Shown piece after piece: positions 46,716 to 54,432 of a DNA stretch of 64,000 bases. The position numbers and the translations under genes were made by a program. Positions within the stretch are counted from its first letter, which is position 1; every line of letters begins with the position of its first letter. This stretch comes from a virus: the UHGV virus genome UHGV-0132893, one strand, 5' to 3'. The notes below the pieces were generated by a model. That model was given only the letters and a program-made list of their open reading frames with translations, did no database searches and had not been told where the DNA came from.

Positions 46716-46916
46716 TTATTCAGAGTCTGTAGCAGTCTCTTCTTTCTTAACTTCGAACTTTGCATCAACAGCATCAAGAAGTGCATCCATAGATGCTTCT
46801 TTAATATCAATACCTGTTGCTACAGATAATCTGTCTGCAATTGCCATGATAGTATTCTGCATAAATTCTAGCTTCTTATTAGCTTCATAAAGTTCTTTAT
46901 AAACGGTCTCGCTCAT
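46716..46916 (-). CDS. hypothetical small protein upstream of terminase
   Basis: 66 aa; too small for a typical small terminase. Confidence 0.4.
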   Translation of the reverse strand: MSETVYKELYEANKKLEFMQNTIMAIADRLSVATGIDIKEASMDALLDAVDAKFEVKKEETATDSE

Positions 46917-46951
46917 TATGTTTTCTCCAAATAGTTAACCATGTTTCCCCT

Positions 46952-46977
46952 TAAAAAAGACGGTACAGAGACCGTCA
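46952..46977 (-). terminator. rho-independent terminator separating tRNA array from late operon
   Basis: gacggt-ctctgt-accgtc hairpin followed by TTTTTT on minus strand. Confidence 0.5.
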
Positions 46978-47144
46978 AGGAGAAACCACAATGTACGTCA
47001 GAGACATACTGTATAAGACTTCTTATAAAGTATAACTCTGTAAAAAAGCCCTGTCTAAAAATACTCTTCGGTAGCGAAAGGAAGAATACTTATAGCAGGG
47101 CATTATTATTATTTTAATTGAGAGAGAGAGAGAGTAAAATAACT

Positions 47145-47220
47145 TGGAGAATCCGAAGGGACTCGAACCCTTATAAACCTGTTTTGCAGACAGGCACATA
47201 GCCATTTCTGTCACGGATTC
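47145..47220 (-). tRNA. tRNA-Cys (GCA)
   Basis: TGG (CCA) start on plus strand, T-arm aaggg-actcgaa-ccctt, anticodon arm cctgt-tttgcag-acagg. Confidence 0.6.
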
Positions 47221-47224
47221 AAAT

Positions 47225-47317
47225 TGGAGGAAGATACCAGACTTGAACTGGTACACCGATTTCTCAGCTACTGGCAGTTTAGCAAACTGCTCCCTTACCT
47301 TTTAGGGTTAATCTTCC
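47225..47317 (-). tRNA. tRNA-Ser (GCU), long variable arm
   Basis: T-arm accag-acttgaa-ctggt; anticodon arm gcagt-ttagcaa-actgc; acceptor ggaagat/atcttcc. Confidence 0.6.
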
Positions 47318-47319
47318 AT

Positions 47320-48054
47320 TTATTTCTGTAATGCGTTCTTCATTTCTGGTGTTGCAATAGTGTCAATTACACCAGTTTTACAAGCATCATCAAACCAGTC
47401 TGGTAAGATACCTGCTAAGAACCCATTGATATTCGTTTTAAGGTACTCTGCAATAAGAGAAGCTTCTTCTTCAATCATCTGCACAACTTCATCTGCATAA
47501 GCTGTAATCTTTGAGATACCTTCATTAATCTTACTAACAGCTTGGTTAGCTAAATCAGAAATAGTATCAAGACCTTTGTCAATAGCGTCTTGTAAGTCAC
47601 TTAATACATCATTAACACCGTCTAGTGCACTGTTAATCGTATCAATAGCTTTTTGGCCATACTCTGTAGCAACACCCATAATACCACTAAATGGTGTACA
47701 ACCAACTTGTTCACCTGCTGCACCCATAACATTAGAATAGCCTTTTGCTACCTGCATACGTGATGAGAACTCATCAATGGACTTTTGACCGTAATCTGTC
47801 AGTGTTTTGGTAGTTGATGTAGTGCTTGTCAGACTCGTGGTAAAGCTGTTAAGCAGAACTGTTGTAAGTCCAGCAGCAACAAGCTTATCCTTTACTGTAG
47901 GGTCTGATACAGAGCTAATAGAGCTTACAAGTGATGTAGAGGCAGCTACGGTTCCACCGAGAACTGCTGCACCAGTAATAAGGGGGTTAGAAAACCCTTT
48001 ACCAGTTTTTAAGAGATTGAAAATCTCCTTACCTTGTTCTGTCATCTCTTTCAT
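47320..48054 (-). CDS. hypothetical protein (Ser/Thr-rich N-terminus, helical C-terminus)
   Basis: ORF track 47320..48117 overlaps a tRNA; start moved to internal Met at 48054. Confidence 0.45.
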   Translation of the reverse strand: MKEMTEQGKEIFNLLKTGKGFSNPLITGAAVLGGTVAASTSLVSSISSVSDPTVKDKLVAAGLTTVLLNSFTTSLTSTTSTTKTLTDYGQKSIDEFSSRMQVAKGYSNVMGAAGEQVGCTPFSGIMGVATEYGQKAIDTINSALDGVNDVLSDLQDAIDKGLDTISDLANQAVSKINEGISKITAYADEVVQMIEEEASLIAEYLKTNINGFLAGILPDWFDDACKTGVIDTIATPEMKNALQK

Positions 48055-48070
48055 TAAGCACCTTTGAAAT

Positions 48071-48147
48071 TGGTAGTCCAGTGGGATTTGAACCCTCTTC
48101 TCATGTTTTTCAGACACGCGCTTTAACCATATAAGCTACTTGGACTA
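48071..48147 (-). tRNA. tRNA, tentatively Phe (GAA)
   Basis: T-loop atttgaa, acceptor tagtcca/tggacta; anticodon loop ttttcag with 4/5-bp stem. Confidence 0.5.
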
Positions 48148-48152
48148 TAAAT

Positions 48153-48228
48153 TGGGGTGACCTACGGGATTTGAACCCGTATAGACCATGTTCACAGCAT
48201 GGGTCATTACCATTTATGATAAGGCCAC
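48153..48228 (-). tRNA. tRNA-His (GUG)
   Basis: T-arm acggg-atttgaa-cccgt; anticodon arm ccatg-ttcacag-catgg. Confidence 0.6.
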
Positions 48229-48259
48229 ATTTAAGGACTCTCGTAAGAATCCTTAGAAG

Positions 48260-48335
48260 TGGCAGCGGCATAAGGATTTGAACCTTAATAGGACAGCTTC
48301 AGAGACTGCTGCATTGCCAGTTATGCTATACCGCT
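48260..48335 (-). tRNA. tRNA, anticodon not resolved
   Basis: T-arm taagg-atttgaa-cctta, D-stem gcat/atgc, acceptor agcggca/(t)accgct. Confidence 0.5.
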
Positions 48336-48340
48336 AAATT

Positions 48341-48418
48341 TGGTACTCCATATCGGATTCGAACCGATACATAACACAGATTTTAAGTCTGGCCTCTCTG
48401 CCAATTGGAGTAATGGAG
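48341..48418 (-). tRNA. tRNA, anticodon tentative (loop reads UAA but no long variable arm)
   Basis: T-arm atcgg-attcgaa-ccgat; loop caga-ttttaag-tctg. Confidence 0.45.
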
Positions 48419-48421
48419 CAT

Positions 48422-48497
48422 TGGCGGGGGATGTTGGAATTGAACCAACTTCTTCGATTTCAAAGACCGAGGTTTTAACCTTGTAAACTAATCCCCT
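48422..48497 (-). tRNA. tRNA-Gln (UUG)
   Basis: T-arm gttgg-aattgaa-ccaac; anticodon loop ttcaaag; acceptor gggggat/atcccct. Confidence 0.55.
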
Positions 48498-48505
48498 TTA
48501 AATCT

Positions 48506-49063
48506 TTACTTTCTTAGTGGATGAATAAAGAATGCCAACATAACTCTTTCCCTTGAGAATGCTCTTTCTTTTGGAACAACACTTTTGAGTTTCCATCCAA
48601 CATAAATTCTCCAGTAGAATTGTTTACCAAAGATTTTAATTGATGGAATAAAAGCGAATAATCCCCAAGCATTACTGTTCCACATTAGGAGATAACCAGT
48701 CTGATTATCTTCAGGGTTAGAACTTACGTTGATATTACCTTTCCACTTAGTAACATCTTTTACATCTCTTCCTAACACATGGTAAGAGAAGTTATAAGCT
48801 TTGTTTCTCCAGAGCCATCCAACTCTCTGCATGTAGACACCAAGCTTACCAATCTTTCTAATCTTAGCCCATCGTTTGATATGACCTGCATCACCATCAA
48901 TTGGGTTGTCATAAGTCTCCATCCATCTGAACCCGAAAGGTAAGTGTCCTTTCTTCTCACTGTAGAATGGAACTACAAAAGGTGCTAAGATAACTGCTAA
49001 GATTGCTGCAAATGGTTCTAACAAAGCTAAGAAAATCCATGAAGCATACTTTAAGTATCTCAT
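48506..49063 (-). CDS. membrane protein embedded in tRNA array
   Basis: 185 aa; N-terminal hydrophobic helix WIFLALLEPFAAILAVILAPFVVPF. Confidence 0.45.
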   Translation of the reverse strand: MRYLKYASWIFLALLEPFAAILAVILAPFVVPFYSEKKGHLPFGFRWMETYDNPIDGDAGHIKRWAKIRKIGKLGVYMQRVGWLWRNKAYNFSYHVLGRDVKDVTKWKGNINVSSNPEDNQTGYLLMWNSNAWGLFAFIPSIKIFGKQFYWRIYVGWKLKSVVPKERAFSRERVMLAFFIHPLRK

Positions 49064-49302
49064 TGTCTAATCCTCGTAAGGAGGTAAATGTTATTATTCG
49101 TTTCTAAACCTTCTGGTAAAACTGTCTCAAAAATAACACTCTTCAGATGTCTACCACCAAAACAATCACGTATAAATCTTTCTACTCTAGCGGGGTCACA
49201 TAAGTATCCCACTTTTAAGAAAATGTGGTGTTCAACACCAATGACCCTGACAAACTCAATACTCTCACAGTTTTCATGTTCAACTACTGTTAATGTTTGC
49301 AT
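49060..49302 (-). CDS. hypothetical protein embedded in tRNA array
   Basis: 80-aa ORF coupled to downstream ORF. Confidence 0.4.
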   Translation of the reverse strand: MQTLTVVEHENCESIEFVRVIGVEHHIFLKVGYLCDPARVERFIRDCFGGRHLKSVIFETVLPEGLETNNNIYLLTRIRQ

Positions 49303-49319
49303 AGTATCACCTGTTTATC

Positions 49320-49395
49320 TGGCGCAGGATAAGGGATTCGAACCCCTATTAACAGCTTCGTAGACTGTTGCTCTTTCCATTTGAACTAATCCTGC
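49320..49395 (-). tRNA. tRNA-Arg (ACG)
   Basis: T-loop attcgaa; anticodon loop ttcgtag; acceptor gcaggat/atcctgc. Confidence 0.55.
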
Positions 49396-49401
49396 AAAAA
49401 T

Positions 49402-49480
49402 TGGTGTTCCAAGACGGATTCGAACCGTCACTAATACAAGGTTTGAGCTTGCATCCTCTGCCAATTGGGATACTGGAACA
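49402..49480 (-). tRNA. tRNA, anticodon tentative (loop reads CAA)
   Basis: T-arm gacgg-attcgaa-ccgtc; D-stem atcc/ggat; loop caag-gtttgag-cttg. Confidence 0.45.
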
Positions 49481-49555
49481 TGGTACTCACTAAAGGACTT
49501 GAACCTTTTTCTTCATCTTGTAAGGGTGATGTTTTACCATATAAACTAAGCGAGT
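49481..49555 (-). tRNA. tRNA-Val (UAC)
   Basis: T-arm aaagg-acttgaa-ccttt; anticodon arm tcatc-ttgtaag-ggtga. Confidence 0.6.
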
Positions 49556-49650
49556 ATGAAAGAGGTCTGGAGTTGTGCCGCTAACTCAACTCCGTGGTAT
49601 TTGTTACGGTCTTCAGTTGACTCAAAGCGGTCTTTCACTTGACCTCTTAA
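49556..49650 (-). ncRNA. tRNA-like / structured element lacking canonical T-loop
   Basis: 8-bp terminal complement aagaggtc...gacctctt and 7-bp internal stem ggagttg/caactcc; no GTTCGAAT-type T-loop. Confidence 0.3.
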
Positions 49651-49651
49651 T

Positions 49652-49727
49652 TGGTGCTCCCACAAGGACTCGAACCCTGATAAGTTGCTTACAAGGCAAC
49701 CGTAATAACCAATTATACGATAGGAGC
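49652..49727 (-). tRNA. tRNA-Thr (UGU)
   Basis: T-loop actcgaa; anticodon arm gttgc-ttacaag-gcaac. Confidence 0.6.
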
Positions 49728-49734
49728 ATTAATT

Positions 49735-49809
49735 TGGAGCATCCAGAGGGAATCGAACCCTCAACCTCAGTTTGGAAGACTGTAATTTTCCCGTTTAAAC
49801 TATGGATGC
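49735..49809 (-). tRNA. tRNA-Gly (UCC)
   Basis: T-arm gaggg-aatcgaa-ccctc; anticodon loop ttggaag; acceptor gcatcca/tggatgc. Confidence 0.55.
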
Positions 49810-49815
49810 ACTAAT

Positions 49816-49891
49816 TGGTGGAGTCACCGAGAATTGAACTCGGTTCCCAAGTTTGCAAAACTCGAGTTTTAACCATATAAACTATGACCCC
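49816..49891 (-). tRNA. tRNA-Ala (UGC)
   Basis: T-arm ccgag-aattgaa-ctcgg; anticodon loop ttgcaaa. Confidence 0.55.
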
Positions 49892-49897
49892 ATTGTT

Positions 49898-49973
49898 TGG
49901 TACAGGTGGAGGGAATTGAACCCATCGTCTTACTGATTAAGAGTCAGCCGCATAACCATTTTGCTACACCTGC
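49898..49973 (-). tRNA. tRNA-Lys (CUU), paralog of 51228..51303
   Basis: T-loop aattgaa; anticodon loop ctga-ttaagag-tcag; near-identical acceptor/T regions to Lys(UUU) copy. Confidence 0.5.
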
Positions 49974-49980
49974 ATTAATT

Positions 49981-50058
49981 TGGTAGGAGACAAGGGATTC
50001 GAACCCTCAAACACCAACTTCTAAGGATGGTAGGTTTACCAATTACCATCAATCTCCC
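49981..50058 (-). tRNA. tRNA, anticodon tentative (loop reads UAG)
   Basis: T-arm aaggg-attcgaa-ccctc; loop ccaac-ttctaag-gatgg. Confidence 0.45.
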
Positions 50059-50316
50059 ATTAAATCTTTTTAGAGAACTTCTAAGAACCTAAGCAACAAG
50101 GTTCCACAACAAGCTGTAATAACCTTAGAAGCCCTCTAAAAAGACCTAAAAAGGTCTTTGCATAGTCTTGTTTAATCCGGTGACTAGAACCTTTGGAGAG
50201 CTTGATATTATCTCTTCTCCGTGACACCTACTAGGTGTTTTATCAGTGTGTACGACAATACACGAGGGATACCAAAGCAACATCCGAATGAAGCTTGGCT
50301 TTAAAATCTTATTAGG

Positions 50317-50404
50317 CGGTAAGTAAAGGAGTCGAACCCTCACCGTATCTCTACAGTGGCAACTGTTTTCAAGACAGTTTGGCTACCATTAGCCGCTACC
50401 TACC
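50317..50404 (-). tRNA. tRNA-Ser (UGA), long variable arm, CCA apparently not encoded
   Basis: anticodon arm aactg-tttcaag-acagt; ~20-nt variable region; weak T-stem. Confidence 0.45.
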
Positions 50405-50417
50405 CCTAATAAGACTT

Positions 50418-50500
50418 TGGCATGGGACGGAGGAGTTGAACCCCTTTGAAACGGTTTTGGAGGCCGTTGCTCATGCCTTAGAGTCTTAACATCGTCCCAT
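50418..50500 (-). tRNA. tRNA-Trp (CCA), unusually long D region
   Basis: T-loop agttgaa; anticodon arm acggt-tttggag-gccgt; acceptor atgggac/gtcccat. Confidence 0.5.
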
Positions 50501-50643
50501 ACTATAATTCGAAGCTTACCGTATTATCTCAACACTGTAAAGCCCCTTCTCAGATTATTTACATGTTCTGGAAAACATGAGATACAGACCACCTCCCTAC
50601 AGGAAGACCCTCTAAGGTCGTCTAAGTAATCTGCTAACTAAAT

Positions 50644-50720
50644 TGGCACACCCTACAGGATTCGAACCTGTAACTAACGATTTAGAAGACCGTTGCTCTA
50701 TCCAATTGAACTAAGGGTGC
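50644..50720 (-). tRNA. tRNA-Arg (UCU)
   Basis: T-arm acagg-attcgaa-cctgt; anticodon loop ttagaag. Confidence 0.55.
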
Positions 50721-50995
50721 ATTAACATTTTAAAGGGTACTTATTGCATTTAAGCCAAGCCCCATAAGGGATACCCTTTAGAATGTTGCCCACCTTATTA
50801 ATCATACCGTGGGCGAGTACGCCAAATTCTTTGATGAGGGATTGGAAGACCTCACTGGTGTTTAGCCTATCAAGCTACTGCCAGAAAAACATTGTCGTTT
50901 GCATTTATTTTAAATTTGCAAAATAGACGCTACGCAACGAAAACTAAGGTTACTATAAAGTAGTCACATCTCAATGTCAACAACTTTATTGAAAT

Positions 50996-51071
50996 TGGTA
51001 CTGGTAGGTGGAATCGAACCACCGATGTTCCCTTATCAGGGGAGTGTTATAACCTTCTTAACTATACCAGC
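50996..51071 (-). tRNA. tRNA-Ile (GAU)
   Basis: T-arm ggtgg-aatcgaa-ccacc; anticodon arm ttccc-ttatcag-gggag. Confidence 0.6.
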
Positions 51072-51072
51072 T

Positions 51073-51149
51073 TGGAGGTTCAGATGGGAATCGAACCCAC
51101 ATTCATAGGGCTTATGAGACCCTTGCATTACCTTATCTGCGACTGAACC
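51073..51149 (-). tRNA. tRNA-Met (CAU)
   Basis: T-loop aatcgaa; anticodon loop ttatgag; acceptor ggttcag/ctgaacc. Confidence 0.55.
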
Positions 51150-51227
51150 AGAATAAGTACCCTAGTTAGAGAAACTGTTGAGTGGGTGTTTCCAGCCGCG
51201 CAGGTGTTTCTCAGTTAAGGGTGAATT

Positions 51228-51303
51228 TGGTAGAAGTGGAGGGATTCGAACCCATCGCCTGTCAGATTAAAAGTCTGCCGCATCACCATTCTGCTACACT
51301 TCC
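51228..51303 (-). tRNA. tRNA-Lys (UUU)
   Basis: T-loop attcgaa; anticodon loop caga-ttaaaag-tctg. Confidence 0.55.
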
Positions 51304-51306
51304 ATT

Positions 51307-51449
51307 AAATTATCTTTGTAGATAAGCTACCCAGACTTGCTTAAGGTCTGTAGCGATGTGCCTTTTGGGTTTAAATCTAGAATTTACCCTTCACCCTTTG
51401 TGGTCGCATACTCACAGGTAAGCTTAATAACTTATCTACAAAGATAATT
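51307..51449. repeat. 19-bp perfect inverted repeat (aattatctttgtagataag / cttatctacaaagataatt) flanking 105 bp
   Basis: exact reverse complements at 51307-51325 and 51431-51449. Confidence 0.7.
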
Positions 51450-51730
51450 ACCAGACCGTTGTTTATCATCTTAAGTGCTACCATTACACCAACTCGACAT
51501 CTGCCGAGTGAAGGAATCGAACCTTCGCCTTTTCTTTACCGGAGAAATAGATTGTTTAAGTTTTGCTGTAAACGGTCTTCTGTAAATTTGTTGAGCCAGA
51601 CCAAGTTTTAAATTTTCAAAATTAAATTGGCTTGAAATTTCATACATTCTTGCTGTATTTGGTCTTCTGCTCCTTTAAAGAATACTCGTAAGAACTCTTT
51701 AAGGGAGGAGCTAAATAGCCCTCTCAAAAT

Positions 51731-51807
51731 TGGCGGCTACGATGAGACTTGAACTCACATCATCTCCCGTGACAGGGGAGTATTTTCTCCAGTTAAACTA
51801 CATAGCC
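51731..51807 (-). tRNA. tRNA-Asp (GUC)
   Basis: T-loop acttgaa; anticodon arm ctccc-gtgacag-gggag. Confidence 0.6.
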
Positions 51808-51812
51808 TTTAT

Positions 51813-51901
51813 TGGTGTGCCGTGTAGGAGTCGAACCTACCGAGTCTCAATGACAAGGGATTTACAGTCCCCACCGCTACCATCTACGGGATAACGACAC
51901 A
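51813..51901 (-). tRNA. tRNA-Tyr (GUA), long variable arm
   Basis: T-arm gtagg-agtcgaa-cctac; anticodon loop ggga-tttacag-tccc; ~15-nt variable arm. Confidence 0.6.
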
Positions 51902-51908
51902 TTTAATT

Positions 51909-51985
51909 TGGCGGTTAGTCAGGGATTCGAACCCTGTGCCATTCGCTTAACAGGCGACCGCACATACCTTATGTGCTTCCTAACC
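51909..51985 (-). tRNA. tRNA-Asn (GUU)
   Basis: T-arm caggg-attcgaa-ccctg; anticodon loop ttaacag. Confidence 0.55.
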
Positions 51986-52068
51986 ATGTTTAGTATTACC
52001 AGACCGTATCTTTCAATTTTTCCGCTAAAAATTTAATGAGTATTGCTGTAAACGGTCTTCTGTAAATT

Positions 52069-52145
52069 TGGAGGCGGGTGCAGGAGTCGAACCTGCCGAT
52101 ACCATGCTAATGAGACATGTGAGACGCCCTTTCTCTATACCCGCA
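52069..52145 (-). tRNA. tRNA with CAU anticodon (second copy: Met or Ile2)
   Basis: T-arm gcagg-agtcgaa-cctgc; D-stem gaga/tctc; anticodon loop taatgag. Confidence 0.55.
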
Positions 52146-52236
52146 ATTCTTAATGACCAGACCAAATCTCTTCTTTGTCCGATTTACCTTCAGATGAATA
52201 AGATTAAGTTTGCTGTAATTGGTCTTCTGTCAAAAC

Positions 52237-52314
52237 TGGCGTTCCAGAAGGGATTTGAACCCTCAAATATCCACTTTGAAAGAGTGGTGACTTTACCATT
52301 TTGTCCACTGGAAC
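52237..52314 (-). tRNA. tRNA-Glu (UUC)
   Basis: T-loop atttgaa; anticodon arm ccact-ttgaaag-agtgg; acceptor gttccag/ctggaac. Confidence 0.6.
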
Positions 52315-52321
52315 ATTAATT

Positions 52322-52398
52322 TGGTCTCTGTTGGAGGACTTGAACCTCCGGCCTTACCGCCCCAAACGGAACGCTCTACCAAGCTGAGCTAAACAGAG
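52322..52398 (-). tRNA. tRNA-Pro (UGG)
   Basis: T-arm ggagg-acttgaa-cctcc; anticodon loop ccccaaa; acceptor ctctgtt/aacagag. Confidence 0.6.
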
Positions 52399-52563
52399 AT
52401 AAACTTTTCAAACTCTATGTAACCACTTTAACATTATTTTTTAGTAGTTGTCAAGAACTTTTTTAAAATATTTTTCAGTATCTTAGAAAAGCTCTCATTT
52501 CGTTTCTATGTAGAACATATTAAAGGGTATTAAACACATTGTCAATACCCTTTTTAAAACTTT

Positions 52564-53979
52564 TTACCAGATGTAACGGTCAATCATTACTGCTTTGAGC
52601 ATTACGCTGATTGGGTCAAACTTCTCACCACCAAGCAGAGCTTTTAAAGTGGCTGGAGAGAAACCTGATACCATTGCTACACCGTTGTCCTTAACAGATA
52701 CTTCGCAAGTACCATTACGGTTTGCTAAGTACCAGAATACCAGTTGTGGCATCTCATATCCAGCTTTTTTGTACTTACTGCGAATTTCTTCAAAGTTTGT
52801 ACGACCATTTGCACCATCAACCTGATTGAACTCCATATCAGAGAAGATGATAAGCTTACTTGGCATATCTTTCTGAGTCAAGTTGTTTCTCTTACCTGTC
52901 TCAAGAATACGGTCAAAAGCTGCTTGTAAGTTAGTTGAGCCATATTCAACATGACGCATCACCTGACGATGACGGTTTTTCAAATCACCACTCAGTTCAA
53001 TGAAATGAGGGTTTGTTGAATAGACCATTAACTCGTCCTTAAAGCATCCTGTGTTGCGTTCTGCTACATACAAGGCAAGAGATACACCAATATCAAGAGC
53101 AGTGATTGAACCAAGATTTACCCAAGACATCGAGCTTGAGACATCAGTCATACATAAGATGTTTTCACCTTCTGCCATCCAGTTTGGTAGTGCTTTCCAC
53201 TGCTCATTCGCAACATCTGCATTACCATACTTGATAGACTTAATCACATCGTATGGGTAAACAGCACCAGCGTTAATCTTAGTCTCACCTTTTGATAAGG
53301 ACTCAATGTAAGCTTTGTAGCGTTCTCCATCTTTACGGTTAAAGAGTTTTTGGTAACGTGCAGCAGCGAGTGAAGGAATCTTGCTGTAGTCAATCTTACC
53401 GAACTCATTAGCAGAGATTTTTTGCTCAACCGTATCAGAAAGTGCAGACAACAGTGTGCGGTACTCTTTCTCACTCAAGTTGGAAAACTTGCAGAAACGT
53501 TTTACAAACTGTTTGTGTCGTGGTTTTACTCGTGGTAACCACTTGGCTGCTAAACCTGCTGTTTCAGGGTCTAGTAATGCTGCTTCTAAATGCTTAAAGG
53601 CATCTGTCTCAAAACGAGTACCTACAAAGATTTTGAAGTCATCAAAACGACCAAGTTCTGCAATCTTATCCATAATACGAAGAACCTGTGTAGGCTCTAA
53701 AACTTTGTCTTCGATTGCTTGAAGTAAAACAGTTCTGAAGGCTTTACGCTCACCCATACCTTCTCGTACATCTCGCATATGCAGCAAAATACGAACTGCA
53801 ACATCAACATCTTCACGCAAAGCTTTGTAGAACAAGTCTGGTAAGATTTCTACATTGCTACGGCTTGAACCAGCAGCTTTGTAAAAGTCTACAAGAGCAG
53901 ACATTGATGAAGTATGGTTTACAGCACCATTTTCAGTTCGACCTGCATGAAGGTGCGCATGTTTAAATAATTCGCTCAT
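52564..53979 (-). CDS. von Willebrand factor A (vWA) domain protein
   Basis: C-terminal half has MIDAS DxSxS motif (MTDVSSSM); 471 aa; adjacent to tRNA array. Confidence 0.6.
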   Translation of the reverse strand: MSELFKHAHLHAGRTENGAVNHTSSMSALVDFYKAAGSSRSNVEILPDLFYKALREDVDVAVRILLHMRDVREGMGERKAFRTVLLQAIEDKVLEPTQVLRIMDKIAELGRFDDFKIFVGTRFETDAFKHLEAALLDPETAGLAAKWLPRVKPRHKQFVKRFCKFSNLSEKEYRTLLSALSDTVEQKISANEFGKIDYSKIPSLAAARYQKLFNRKDGERYKAYIESLSKGETKINAGAVYPYDVIKSIKYGNADVANEQWKALPNWMAEGENILCMTDVSSSMSWVNLGSITALDIGVSLALYVAERNTGCFKDELMVYSTNPHFIELSGDLKNRHRQVMRHVEYGSTNLQAAFDRILETGKRNNLTQKDMPSKLIIFSDMEFNQVDGANGRTNFEEIRSKYKKAGYEMPQLVFWYLANRNGTCEVSVKDNGVAMVSGFSPATLKALLGGEKFDPISVMLKAVMIDRYIW

Positions 53980-54060
53980 ATTTTACTCTCTTCTCTCATT
54001 TGTTGGTTGATGTGACAGACTTTATAGCAACTTTGTAGAGTCTGTCAACACCTTTTAAAA

Positions 54061-54432
54061 TTATTTTTTGAGAGTCGCTACAGCAGAGAACGTTGGTTTG
54101 TTATCTGTCTGAGGTTGACCACCGTTATCAGGGGTCTTCTTAGTGTCTGCTGCAATTGCTTTCATCTCACCTGCTGAGTGAGTCATGATAGTTTTACCAG
54201 CTTCCATCATCGACTTCAGGTTTACATCGTCAGTCGTTAAACCGAACTCTGCAAGCTTAGCAGCGTCCCTTGTAACAATCGCCTCAAACAACTTTGCAGC
54301 AAACTCAGCAGAATTATCAATGGTTAGTTGAGCTTTTACGAGAGAGCTTTTGTTACGTGAGCCTTTCGGTCTTCCAGATGGGTTTCCAGACTGGCCTTTT
54401 TTAAACTGGCCTTTGTTTGTTCTGTTTTTCAT
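54061..54432 (-). CDS. hypothetical basic protein with GNPSGRPKG motif
   Basis: 123 aa; N-terminal KGQSGNPSGRPKGSRNK. Confidence 0.45.
   Translation of the reverse strand: MKNRTNKGQFKKGQSGNPSGRPKGSRNKSSLVKAQLTIDNSAEFAAKLFEAIVTRDAAKLAEFGLTTDDVNLKSMMEAGKTIMTHSAGEMKAIAADTKKTPDNGGQPQTDNKPTFSAVATLKK

What the first reader, a model, noticed from the sequence alone, without database searches (positions are those of the whole stretch)
49556..49650. tRNA-sized structured element without a canonical T-loop
Between tRNA-Val and tRNA-Thr a 95-nt segment has complementary 8-nt termini (aagaggtc / gacctctt) and an internal 7-bp stem (ggagttg / caactcc), but no GTTCGAAT-type T-loop. It fills a slot where a tRNA would be expected. 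It could be a degenerate tRNA, a tRNA-like regulatory RNA or a processing substrate.
Basis: seen in the sequence. Interest (0 to 1): 0.45.

Follow-up and report, generated by a model that had tools for sequence, protein, structure and literature searches.

The report
Conserved non-tRNA RNA in phage tRNA array
The 90-base gap between two tRNA genes of this Felix O1-type phage holds a conserved, folded small RNA that is not a tRNA and matches no described RNA family; its function is unknown, but it sits in an array that also encodes a Ro60-like protein and Y-RNA-like RNAs.

Summary
Window 49560-49648, read on the minus strand (the strand of all 26 tRNA genes), has a 7-8 bp closing stem and a 7 bp hairpin. 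It folds far better than shuffles (z = -4.1). It has no T-loop and no Rfam, tRNA or tmRNA match.

It is not a decayed tRNA. About 260 sequenced phages carry it (Felix O1 relatives, plus Avunavirus Av-05 and TH18). It varies less than the tRNAs beside it, and a 23-nt segment is nearly invariant. Both stems keep pairing through compensatory and G-U changes that work only on the tRNA strand. The hairpin loop (GCGG) can pair with an upstream CCGC, which would make a pseudoknot.

Best reading: a new small structured RNA, cut out of the polycistronic tRNA precursor and acting in trans through its invariant loop. The function is inferred, not shown.

The array also holds a Ro60-like protein gene (52564-53979), four Y-RNA-like elements, one of them a YrlA-type permuted tRNA mimic, and an unannotated unusual tRNA-Trp. 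A link between the element and the Ro system is possible (shared 9-mer GAAGACCGU). It is weakened by Av-05, which has the element without Ro, and by Ro-encoding relatives that lack the element.

The parts
49560..49648 (-). The whole element (alignment columns 1-89; column i = window position 49649 - i): a conserved structured ncRNA
   Evidence: CM R1 scores 116.5 bits here and finds no second copy in the window. Conserved in about 260 phage records.
49641..49648 (-). P1 5' strand, AAGAGGUC (columns 1-8; the conserved core is columns 3-8, 6 bp, with 2:88 paired in most sequences)
   Evidence: Pairs with 49560-49567. Compensatory changes: 5:85 G-C to U-A in Av-05 and TH18, and 3:87 G-C to U-A in L110. 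G-U at 5:85 in L075.
49631..49640 (-). J1, AAGUGAAAGA, containing the invariant UGAAA
   Evidence: Alignments A1 and A3. GUGAAAGAC fits the T-loop pentanucleotide pattern U-N-N-R-A flanked by G..C. This is my own inference and was not tested.
49627..49630 (-). CCGC, the 5' strand of the proposed pseudoknot
   Evidence: Invariant, and complementary to the invariant GCGG in the P2 loop in all 17 distinct sequences. Duplex energy about -7 to -8.7 kcal/mol. With no variation there can be no covariation test.
49622..49626 (-). Variable linker (UUUGA / UGGU / UUGA / UUGG), with 1-nt length differences
   Evidence: The 1-nt indels argue against a coding frame.
49599..49621 (-). Invariant core, GUCAACUGAAGACCGUAACAAAU (columns 28-50), containing the 9-mer GAAGACCGU
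   Evidence: 1 variable column of 23 across 39 distinct Felix-like haplotypes, and identical in Av-05. GAAGACCGU occurs 4 times in the window against 0.22 expected.
49587..49593 (-). P2 5' strand, GGAGUUG (columns 56-62)
   Evidence: Pairs with 49569-49575. 100% of cells are paired in A1 and A3. Column pair 57:79 shows GU, GC and AU; 58:78 changes A-U to G-C; 56:80 and 60:76 show wobble variants.
49576..49586 (-). P2 loop, AGUUAGCGGCA (11 nt), with GCGG at 49578-49581
   Evidence: GCGG is invariant; it is the 3' strand of the proposed pseudoknot.
49569..49575 (-). P2 3' strand, CAACUCC (columns 74-80)
49560..49567 (-). P1 3' strand, GACCUCUU (columns 82-89), separated from P2 by the single invariant A at 49568
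49652..49727 (-). Upstream tRNA-Thr(tgt). Its CCA end is 3 nt (AUU) from P1
49481..49555 (-). Downstream tRNA-Val(tac). Its 5' end, the RNase P site, is 4 nt (UCAU) after P1
52564..53979 (-). Context, link unproven: Ro60-like protein gene (DUF2828 + DUF7788), same strand, 2.9 kb upstream of the element
   Evidence: Pfam. PHROG 850 'RNA-binding protein'. The AlphaFold model (pLDDT 88) matches Ro60/Rsr full length; the top 12 PDB hits have E from 6e-8 to 1e-6.
51450..52230 (-). Context, link unproven: four Y-RNA-like elements at a 52230-52156, b 52063-51998, c 51670-51596 and d 51583-51450. Copies b and d share GAAGACCGU with the element

Best explanation
The segment encodes a genuine small structured RNA of about 90 nt that selection maintains. 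It is not a tRNA and not a tRNA remnant. It lies on the tRNA strand inside a tightly packed tRNA array. It is therefore most likely transcribed as part of the polycistronic tRNA precursor and released by the enzymes that mature its neighbours: 3' processing of tRNA-Thr 3 nt upstream, and RNase P cleavage at tRNA-Val 4 nt downstream. It folds into a closing stem P1 (6-8 bp) and a 7-bp hairpin P2 that abuts the 3' strand of P1. The 11-nt loop of P2 probably pairs (GCGG with CCGC) with the 5' part of the RNA, forming an H-type pseudoknot enclosed by P1. This layout resembles an acceptor/T-arm stack with an elbow contact, but only in topology. The fold would protect the RNA ends and display a nearly invariant 23-nt segment (GUCAACUGAAGACCGUAACAAAU). 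I take that segment to be the working surface, which binds a protein or RNA partner in trans. Shown here: conservation, strand, and helices P1 and P2. Inferred: transcription, excision, the pseudoknot and action in trans.
For: Structure: z = -4.0 to -4.15 against shuffles. P1 has two pairs with changes on both sides, from independent lineages (Av-05/TH18 and L110). P2 is paired in 100% of cells with four variable pairs and three pair types at 57:79. Strand: the G-U variants at 57:79, 56:80, 60:76 and 5:85 are pairs only on the minus strand. Selection: 16% of columns vary, against 18-61% in the four flanking tRNAs across 39 haplotypes; the 23-nt core has 1 variable column. The element is 82% identical between Ounavirinae and Avunavirus, and the differences fall in the stems, where they are compensated, and in the linker. 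Not a tRNA or any known family. Not coding: 1-nt indels in the linker. Placement: spacers of 3 and 4 nt to the neighbouring tRNAs, and no promoter-like or terminator-like site next to the element. In Av-05 the element directly follows tRNA-Gly on the same strand.
Against: No transcript data were found. The divergence available is small (94-95% mean column identity), so the covariation rests on a few events. The pseudoknot strands never vary and so cannot be tested. The flanking pair 17:72 covaries in Av-05 but is broken in L110. RNAalifold and MFE folding of the Felix-type sequences prefer a different nested fold (UCAACU/AGUUGA plus CCGU/ACGG) that excludes P2, so the RNA may be bistable. No partner was identified: complementarity within the 64-kb phage window does not exceed chance, and blastn at E <= 10 found no match in E. 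coli genomes. The element was lost with its neighbouring tRNAs in one Felix-like lineage (L109), so it is dispensable there.
Confidence: 0.6

Rival explanations
1. The element is a Y-RNA-like partner (a fifth, divergent one) of the phage Ro60-like protein encoded at 52564-53979. It would bind the Ro ring through the GGUC/GACC helix of P1 and/or the GAAGACCGU motif, and would gate the ring or tether it to a nuclease or to tRNA-like substrates, as Y RNAs do.
For: The neighbouring gene product is structurally a Ro60. The element is 85-95 nt long, with a stem formed by its 5' and 3' ends and a large internal loop. It lies 2.9 kb downstream of the Ro-like gene on the same strand, within the 4-kb same-strand rule of Chen et al. 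2014 (PMC4201824). It shares the 9-mer GAAGACCGU with the terminal-stem 5' strand of Y-like copies b and d. The GGUC/GACC core of P1 is kept in all Ro-encoding lineages and changed to UGUC/GACA in Ro-less Av-05.
Against: Av-05 carries the element but no Ro-like gene anywhere in its 120,938 bp. Ro-encoding relatives lack the element: P778 (L036), L111, L112, L113, and L109 through a block deletion. There is no GNCGAAN0-1G motif in the element. It has no T or D arm. Better Y-RNA candidates exist in the same array. Overall k-mer sharing with those candidates is only marginal (P about 0.03-0.15).
Confidence: 0.2
2. The element is a cis-acting part of the tRNA precursor: a structured spacer that guides or insulates folding and nuclease processing of the neighbouring tRNAs, with no function of its own after release.
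For: It is embedded between tRNAs with spacers of 3-4 nt. Other structured spacers exist in the same array. It was lost together with its flanking tRNAs in L109.
Against: A spacer does not need a 23-nt segment that varies less than the tRNAs themselves. In Av-05 the tRNAs that flank it differ: tRNA-Gly lies upstream and a protein gene downstream. The core is nevertheless identical. Most other tRNA junctions in the array manage with 1-8 nt spacers.
Confidence: 0.12
3. The element is a catalytic or ligand-binding RNA of an undescribed class, for example a self-cleaving ribozyme that trims the 3' trailer of the upstream tRNA, as the HDV-like theta ribozymes are recalled to do. The theta comparison rests on memory; the paper was not retrieved here.
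For: It sits immediately 3' of a tRNA in both phage groups. It has a pseudoknot enclosed by a closing stem, with an invariant unpaired core.
Against: No Rfam ribozyme or riboswitch family matches even at E <= 10. The helix order (P1, PK, P2, PK', P2', P1') is not the HDV nested double pseudoknot. A hammerhead-like CUGANGA/GAAA pair is present but without the required stems (by inspection).
Confidence: 0.05
4. The element is a decayed tRNA gene (pseudogene), a small ORF or a DNA-level site.
For: It has tRNA size and tRNA position. Some records annotate a hypothetical protein over it.
Against: Conservation equals or exceeds that of functional tRNAs. Compensatory and G-U changes are present. The linker has frame-breaking 1-nt indels. 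No cloverleaf is found.
Confidence: 0.03

Closest known systems
Phage T4 species 1 and species 2 RNAs (rnaC, rnaD)
   Same: They are small stable non-tRNA RNAs encoded on the tRNA strand inside a phage tRNA cluster, separated from the neighbouring tRNA/RNA by 1-6 nt. Their function remains unknown (from memory). rnaC has a closing stem plus an adjacent 3' hairpin, as this element does.
   Different: There is no sequence or CM similarity. rnaC carries a canonical GGUUCGAAUCC T-loop, which this element lacks. The T4 RNAs are 119 and 139 nt against about 90 nt. No pseudoknot equivalent is known for them.
Bacterial and phage Y RNAs (YrlA/YrlB; Chen et al. 2014, PMC4201824; phiLo Yrl1/2, PMC12135203)
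   Same: [quoted passage not shown]
   Different: The element has no GNCGAA/CGAA motif and no T or D arms. It occurs without Ro in Av-05 and is absent from several Ro-encoding relatives. Elements a-d in the same array fit the Y RNA description much better.
tRNA and the tRNA-like domain of tmRNA
   Same: It occupies a tRNA slot, has a closing stem of 6-8 bp with a hairpin stacked on its 3' strand, and that hairpin's loop contacts a 5' single-stranded region, as the T-loop and D-loop do.
   Different: It has no T-loop sequence, no anticodon arm and no encoded CCA. The stack is 14-15 bp rather than 12. It scores below every tRNA and tmRNA threshold.

Membership tests
tRNA (Rfam RF00005 / ARAGORN cloverleaf) | Cloverleaf with D arm, anticodon arm (7-nt loop, U33) and T arm with a GTTCRANYC loop | tested here: not met
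   ARAGORN finds no tRNA at default thresholds or at 80% thresholds on the tRNA strand. The Rfam tRNA model gives no hit inside the element at E <= 10.
tmRNA | tRNA-like domain plus a tag reading frame | tested here: not met
   ARAGORN tmRNA search and Rfam give nothing.
Y RNA / YrlA-YrlB | Stem formed by the 5' and 3' ends enclosing a large internal loop; 80-130 nt | tested here: met
   P1 closes an 89-nt RNA, and 73 nt lie inside it.
Y RNA / YrlA-YrlB | Encoded within about 4 kb of a Ro60 orthologue on the same strand | tested here: inconclusive
   Met in Felix-like phages: 2.9 kb, same strand, with the Ro60 fold confirmed. Not met in Av-05, which has no Ro-like gene. Ro-encoding relatives lack the element.
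Y RNA / YrlA-YrlB | GNCGAAN0-1G (or CGAA) motif near the 5' end | tested here: not met
   The only match on this strand in 46900-54100 is at 51529, inside element d.
Y RNA / YrlA-YrlB | tRNA-like T and D stem-loops (YrlA type) | tested here: not met
   No T-loop and no Rfam tRNA partial hit in the element. Element d, in contrast, scores 22 bits.
Y RNA / YrlA-YrlB | Physical binding to the Ro60 protein | not testable with these tools
   Needs co-immunoprecipitation or EMSA.
T4 rnaC/rnaD-type stable RNAs of tRNA clusters | Non-tRNA RNA gene embedded on the tRNA strand of a phage tRNA cluster | tested here: met
T4 rnaC/rnaD-type stable RNAs of tRNA clusters | Homology to rnaC or rnaD | tested here: not met
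   CM R1 finds nothing in the T4 cluster (best hit 11.9 bits, elsewhere in the locus).
Known self-cleaving ribozymes and riboswitches (Rfam 15) | Match to a curated covariance model | tested here: not met
   No such family appears at E <= 10 over 49500-49700 or at gathering threshold over the window.

The most novel reading that the evidence does not exclude
The element is a minimised, pseudoknotted member of a Ro60/Y-RNA system that Felix O1-type phages embed in their tRNA array. That system comprises the Ro60-like protein, a YrlA-type permuted tRNA mimic, three YrlB-type RNAs and this RNA. In this reading the element presents the shared GAAGACCGU motif and a GGUC/GACC helix to the Ro ring, or to the nuclease the ring recruits, so as to control quality or turnover of phage or host tRNAs during infection.
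Probability: 0.2. Interest if true: 0.65.

Novelty: new member of a known kind. Interest (0 to 1): 0.45.

Why it matters
Felix O1-type phages are classic Salmonella and E. coli typing and biocontrol phages. Their tRNA arrays are usually annotated as tRNAs separated by empty spacers or spurious ORFs. This work shows that the spacer is a conserved RNA gene of an undescribed family. It also shows that the same array carries a Ro60-like protein with Y-RNA-like partners and an unannotated tRNA-Trp. That makes the array an RNA-biology module rather than a simple codon-supply kit. It also gives a tractable E. coli/Salmonella phage system for asking what viral Ro60-Y RNA particles and tRNA-array ncRNAs do, for example in tRNA quality control or in countering tRNA-targeting host defences.

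Tried and rejected
1. Selenocysteine tRNA, intron-containing tRNA or tRNA-Trp. No cloverleaf exists, and the candidate anticodon stems are not conserved between variants. The missing tRNA-Trp is elsewhere, at 50420-50498.

2. Hammerhead or HDV-like ribozyme. CUGAAGA and GAAA are present, but the stems and helix order do not fit, and there are no Rfam hits.

3. Mimicry of the 16S rRNA 3' end (UGAAG-CGUAACAA...GCGG...ACCUCCUU). An unbiased local alignment against the rrnH operon scores 19-20, below the shuffle mean of 21.6.

4. Antisense regulator of phage mRNAs. The longest complementary run in the 64-kb window is 10 nt, against 10-12 nt for shuffled queries.

5. Host or plasmid homologue. There is none in 5,426 E. 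coli genomes, and only chance hits in plasmids.

6. More distant homologues. Degenerate pattern scans of viral, genome and metagenome collections returned only Felix-like and Av-05-like copies or chance hits. So did CM searches next to DUF7338 and DUF2828 homologues.

7. Functional link to DUF7338. The DUF7338 gene is 79% identical between Felix-like phages and Av-05 and lies downstream in both. However, DUF7338 homologues in T4-like and Vi01-like contigs have no element nearby.

8. Nested MFE fold (structure B). It is thermodynamically favoured in Felix sequences. However, its specific helices have 11 unpaired cells from at least four independent substitutions and no double changes.

9. Circular-permutation relationship with Y-like copy b (shared UGAAAGA, GAAGACCGU and UUAGCGG). 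The k-mer sharing is only marginal (69 of 2000 shuffles as high).

10. An error of mine. The pseudoknot brackets were off by one column, so the whole-structure figures of that call (percentage paired, shuffle and slide controls) are affected. The pseudoknot pairing is correctly counted, and the P1 and P2 per-pair counts are unaffected.

Full report
**What the window is.** The window is part of a Felix O1-type phage (Felixounavirus, Ounavirinae). An 801-bp stretch around the finding matches 311 phage records, and the best hits are 97-98% identical Felixounavirus genomes. ARAGORN finds 26 tRNA genes, all on the minus strand, between 47145 and 52398. They cover every amino acid except Trp. Rfam confirms 24 of them and reports nothing else in the window.

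**The observation.** The finding lies in the 96-nt gap between tRNA-Thr(tgt) (49652-49727) and tRNA-Val(tac) (49481-49555). The minus-strand RNA folds at -29.7 to -30.2 kcal/mol, against about -17 for dinucleotide shuffles (z = -4.0 to -4.15; 0 of 200 shuffles as good). The plus strand gives z = -3.3. There is no T-loop. No Rfam family matches the element even at E <= 10. ARAGORN finds no tRNA or tmRNA on the tRNA strand even at 80% thresholds.

**Conservation and distribution.**
- blastn finds the element in about 260 phage records. Nearly all are Ounavirinae (Felixounavirus, Mooglevirus, Suspvirus).
- It also occurs at about 82% identity in Avunavirus Av-05 and in phage TH18 (Vequintavirinae). 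There it directly follows tRNA-Gly(tcc) on the tRNA strand and precedes a protein gene.
- Across 39 distinct Felix-like haplotypes of the region, the element has 16% variable columns. The four neighbouring tRNAs have 18-61%.
- The 23-nt segment GUCAACUGAAGACCGUAACAAAU has a single variable column and is identical in Av-05.
- The short linker after CCGC varies in sequence and by 1 nt in length, which rules out a reading frame.
- A covariance model built from 17 distinct sequences finds one copy per genome.
- It finds none in Yersinia phage P778, in three other distant relatives with the same array architecture (L111-L113), next to DUF7338 homologues in T4-like or Vi01-like contigs, or in the T4 tRNA cluster.
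- Pattern scans of viral, genome and metagenome collections returned only Felix-like or Av-05-like copies.
- Two metagenomic lineages gave new variants, L108 and the most divergent, L110. A third, L109, has lost the whole block tRNA-Thr-element-tRNA-Val-tRNA-Leu-tRNA-Arg.

The family is therefore real and under purifying selection, but phylogenetically narrow.

**Structure.**
- *P1 and P2.* Two helices are supported by comparison. P1 (columns 3-8 with 82-87) has two positions where both sides changed in independent lineages: 5:85 G-C to U-A in Av-05 and TH18, and 3:87 G-C to U-A in L110. A metagenomic variant adds a G-U at 5:85. P2 (56-62 with 74-80) is paired in every sequence although four of its seven pairs vary: GU/GC/AU at 57:79, A-U to G-C at 58:78, and wobbles at 56:80 and 60:76.
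- *Strand.* The G-U variants would be A-C mismatches on the other strand. The RNA is therefore read from the minus strand, the strand of the tRNAs.
- *Pseudoknot.* The invariant GCGG in the 11-nt loop of P2 is complementary to the invariant CCGC at columns 19-22 (duplex about -7 to -8.7 kcal/mol). This gives an H-type pseudoknot enclosed by P1. Neither strand varies, so the pairing is plausible but untested. The flanking pair 17:72 covaries in Av-05 but is broken in L110.
- *Alternative fold.* MFE folding and RNAalifold prefer a nested alternative for the Felix sequences (UCAACU/AGUUGA and CCGU/ACGG). Its specific helices collect 11 unpaired cells from at least four independent substitutions and show no double changes. 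For Av-05 the P1+P2 fold is itself the MFE. I therefore favour P1 + P2 + pseudoknot, and note that the RNA might be bistable.
- *Caveat.* The whole alignment is 94-95% identical, so the covariation evidence is real but thin.

**How it probably works.** The element has no promoter-like or terminator-like site of its own. It lies 3 nt after the CCA of tRNA-Thr and 4 nt before the first base of tRNA-Val. The simplest inference is that it is transcribed within the polycistronic tRNA precursor and released when its neighbours are matured, much as the T4 species 1 and 2 RNAs sit in the T4 cluster. P1 would protect both ends. The near-absolute conservation of an unpaired 23-nt segment points to sequence-specific recognition by a partner, that is, a function in trans. 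No partner could be identified. Complementarity to the rest of the window is at chance level. blastn at E <= 10 found no match in E. coli genomes. An apparent resemblance to the 3' end of 16S rRNA did not survive an unbiased alignment test.

**The Ro60 context.**
- *The protein.* The gene immediately upstream of the array on the same strand (52564-53979, 471 aa; Pfam DUF2828 + DUF7788; PHROG 'RNA-binding protein') gives a confident AlphaFold model (pLDDT 88, pTM 0.87). Its twelve best PDB matches are all Ro60/Rsr proteins aligned over their full length: Xenopus, human, Deinococcus and Thermus phage phiLo (E from 6e-8 to 1e-6, TM up to 0.67). Ro60 proteins work with Y RNAs encoded nearby on the same strand (PMC4201824; PMC12135203).
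- *The Y-like RNAs.* The array contains four paralogous elements with a common terminal stem, 5'-ACAGAAGACC(GU/AA)...(AC/UU)GGUCUGG-3', whose variable pairs are compensated. The largest, d (51583-51450), encloses a V arm, a canonical T arm, a closed acceptor-like stem-loop and a D arm. This is the circularly permuted tRNA mimic that defines YrlA. The acceptor-like stem covaries completely among 20 variants. The same architecture, with different stem sequences, is present downstream of the Ro-like gene in two distant lineages.
- *Consequence.* These four elements, not the finding, are the obvious Y RNA candidates.
- *For a link to the finding's element.* It shares the 9-mer GAAGACCGU with copies b and d (4 occurrences in the window against 0.22 expected). 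It has a GGUC/GACC helix that is altered only in Ro-less Av-05.
- *Against a link.* Av-05 has no Ro-like gene at all. Several Ro-encoding relatives lack the element. The element has no GNCGAA motif. Overall k-mer sharing with the Y-like copies is marginal.

I rate the Ro reading at about 0.2.

**Comparison with known systems and verdict.** The closest known things are:
- the T4 rnaC/rnaD stable RNAs, which share the genomic logic but show no homology;
- Y RNAs, which share size and outline but whose defining motifs are not met;
- tRNA-like domains, which share topology only.

The element is a new RNA family of a known general kind: a small stable RNA embedded in a phage tRNA cluster. Searches of the paper library turned up nothing that describes it. 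Its function remains unknown. The mechanism offered here, excision with the tRNAs and action in trans through the invariant loop, is an inference.

Noticed in passing
window 52564-53979 (-): This 471-aa DUF2828+DUF7788 protein, directly upstream of the tRNA array, is structurally a Ro60/Rsr homologue (HEAT-repeat ring plus vWA domain). Its top 12 PDB matches are all Ro60. Homologues occur in 710 phage records across many host genera.
   Followed up: yes
window 51450-51583 (-): A YrlA-like RNA: a terminal stem (UUAC / AGACCGUU...AACGGUCU / GUAA) encloses a V arm, a canonical T arm (GAAGG-UUCGAUU-CCUUC), a closed acceptor-like stem-loop and a D arm. This amounts to a circularly permuted tRNA mimic. 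The acceptor-like stem covaries fully among 20 variants. The same architecture lies downstream of the Ro-like gene in distant lineages (L112 12690-12835, L113 11850-11990). I found no paper describing it.
   Followed up: partly
window 52156-52230, 51998-52063, 51596-51670 (-): Three shorter paralogues of the YrlA-like element (YrlB-like). They share the stem ACAGAAGACC(GU/AA)...(AC/UU)GGUCUGG with compensatory differences, and are present in 3-4 copies in all Felix-like lineages examined (L108, L109, L110, L114, L035).
   Followed up: partly
window 50420-50498 (-): An unannotated, non-canonical tRNA-Trp(CCA)-like gene, which accounts for the missing amino acid. It has an 8-bp acceptor stem, G discriminator and CCA, a 4-bp T stem (8/4 geometry), an odd D region and the anticodon loop CUCCAAA. 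The anticodon and acceptor stems covary across Felix-like phages, P778, L111, L112 and Av-05. ARAGORN and Rfam tRNA miss it (Rfam tRNA-Sec scores only 23 bits).
   Followed up: partly
window 51150-51227 (-): The 78-nt spacer between tRNA-Lys(ttt) and tRNA-Met folds into a long hairpin (-21 kcal/mol, z = -4.3). Its nature is unknown.
   Followed up: no
L003 377-490 (phage vB_EcoM_DE17; also KEP1, KEP3 and 'SA1'): Some Felix-like phages carry a 108-nt insertion between tRNA-Leu(caa) and tRNA-Arg(acg). It holds a Shine-Dalgarno sequence and a 35-codon ORF (MSNKSIAKKF...).
   Followed up: no
L036 13978-14106 (Yersinia phage P778): In P778 the slot between tRNA-Thr and tRNA-Val holds a 42-codon acidic ORF with a ribosome-binding site instead of the element.
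   Followed up: no
L004 1272-1420 (phage Av-05): Between tRNA-Tyr and tRNA-Gly, Av-05 has a long perfect hairpin (CUGUACUGGC...GCCAGUACAG). After it comes an undetected tRNA-like sequence (GGGAGUG...CACUCCCACCA) with a non-canonical T-loop (GGCAGAG) and the anticodon loop CCGAUAA.
   Followed up: no
window 48506-49063 (-); L062-L070: The DUF7338 membrane-protein gene downstream of the element is 79% identical in Av-05. At 59-62% identity it lies next to tRNA genes in T4-like and Vi01-like phage contigs. This is a recurrent companion of phage tRNA genes, of unknown function.
   Followed up: partly
GU169904.1 (H13): The record named 'Staphylococcus phage SA1' (147 kb) contains this Felix O1-type tRNA region at 98% identity. 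It is probably a chimeric or contaminated assembly.
   Followed up: no
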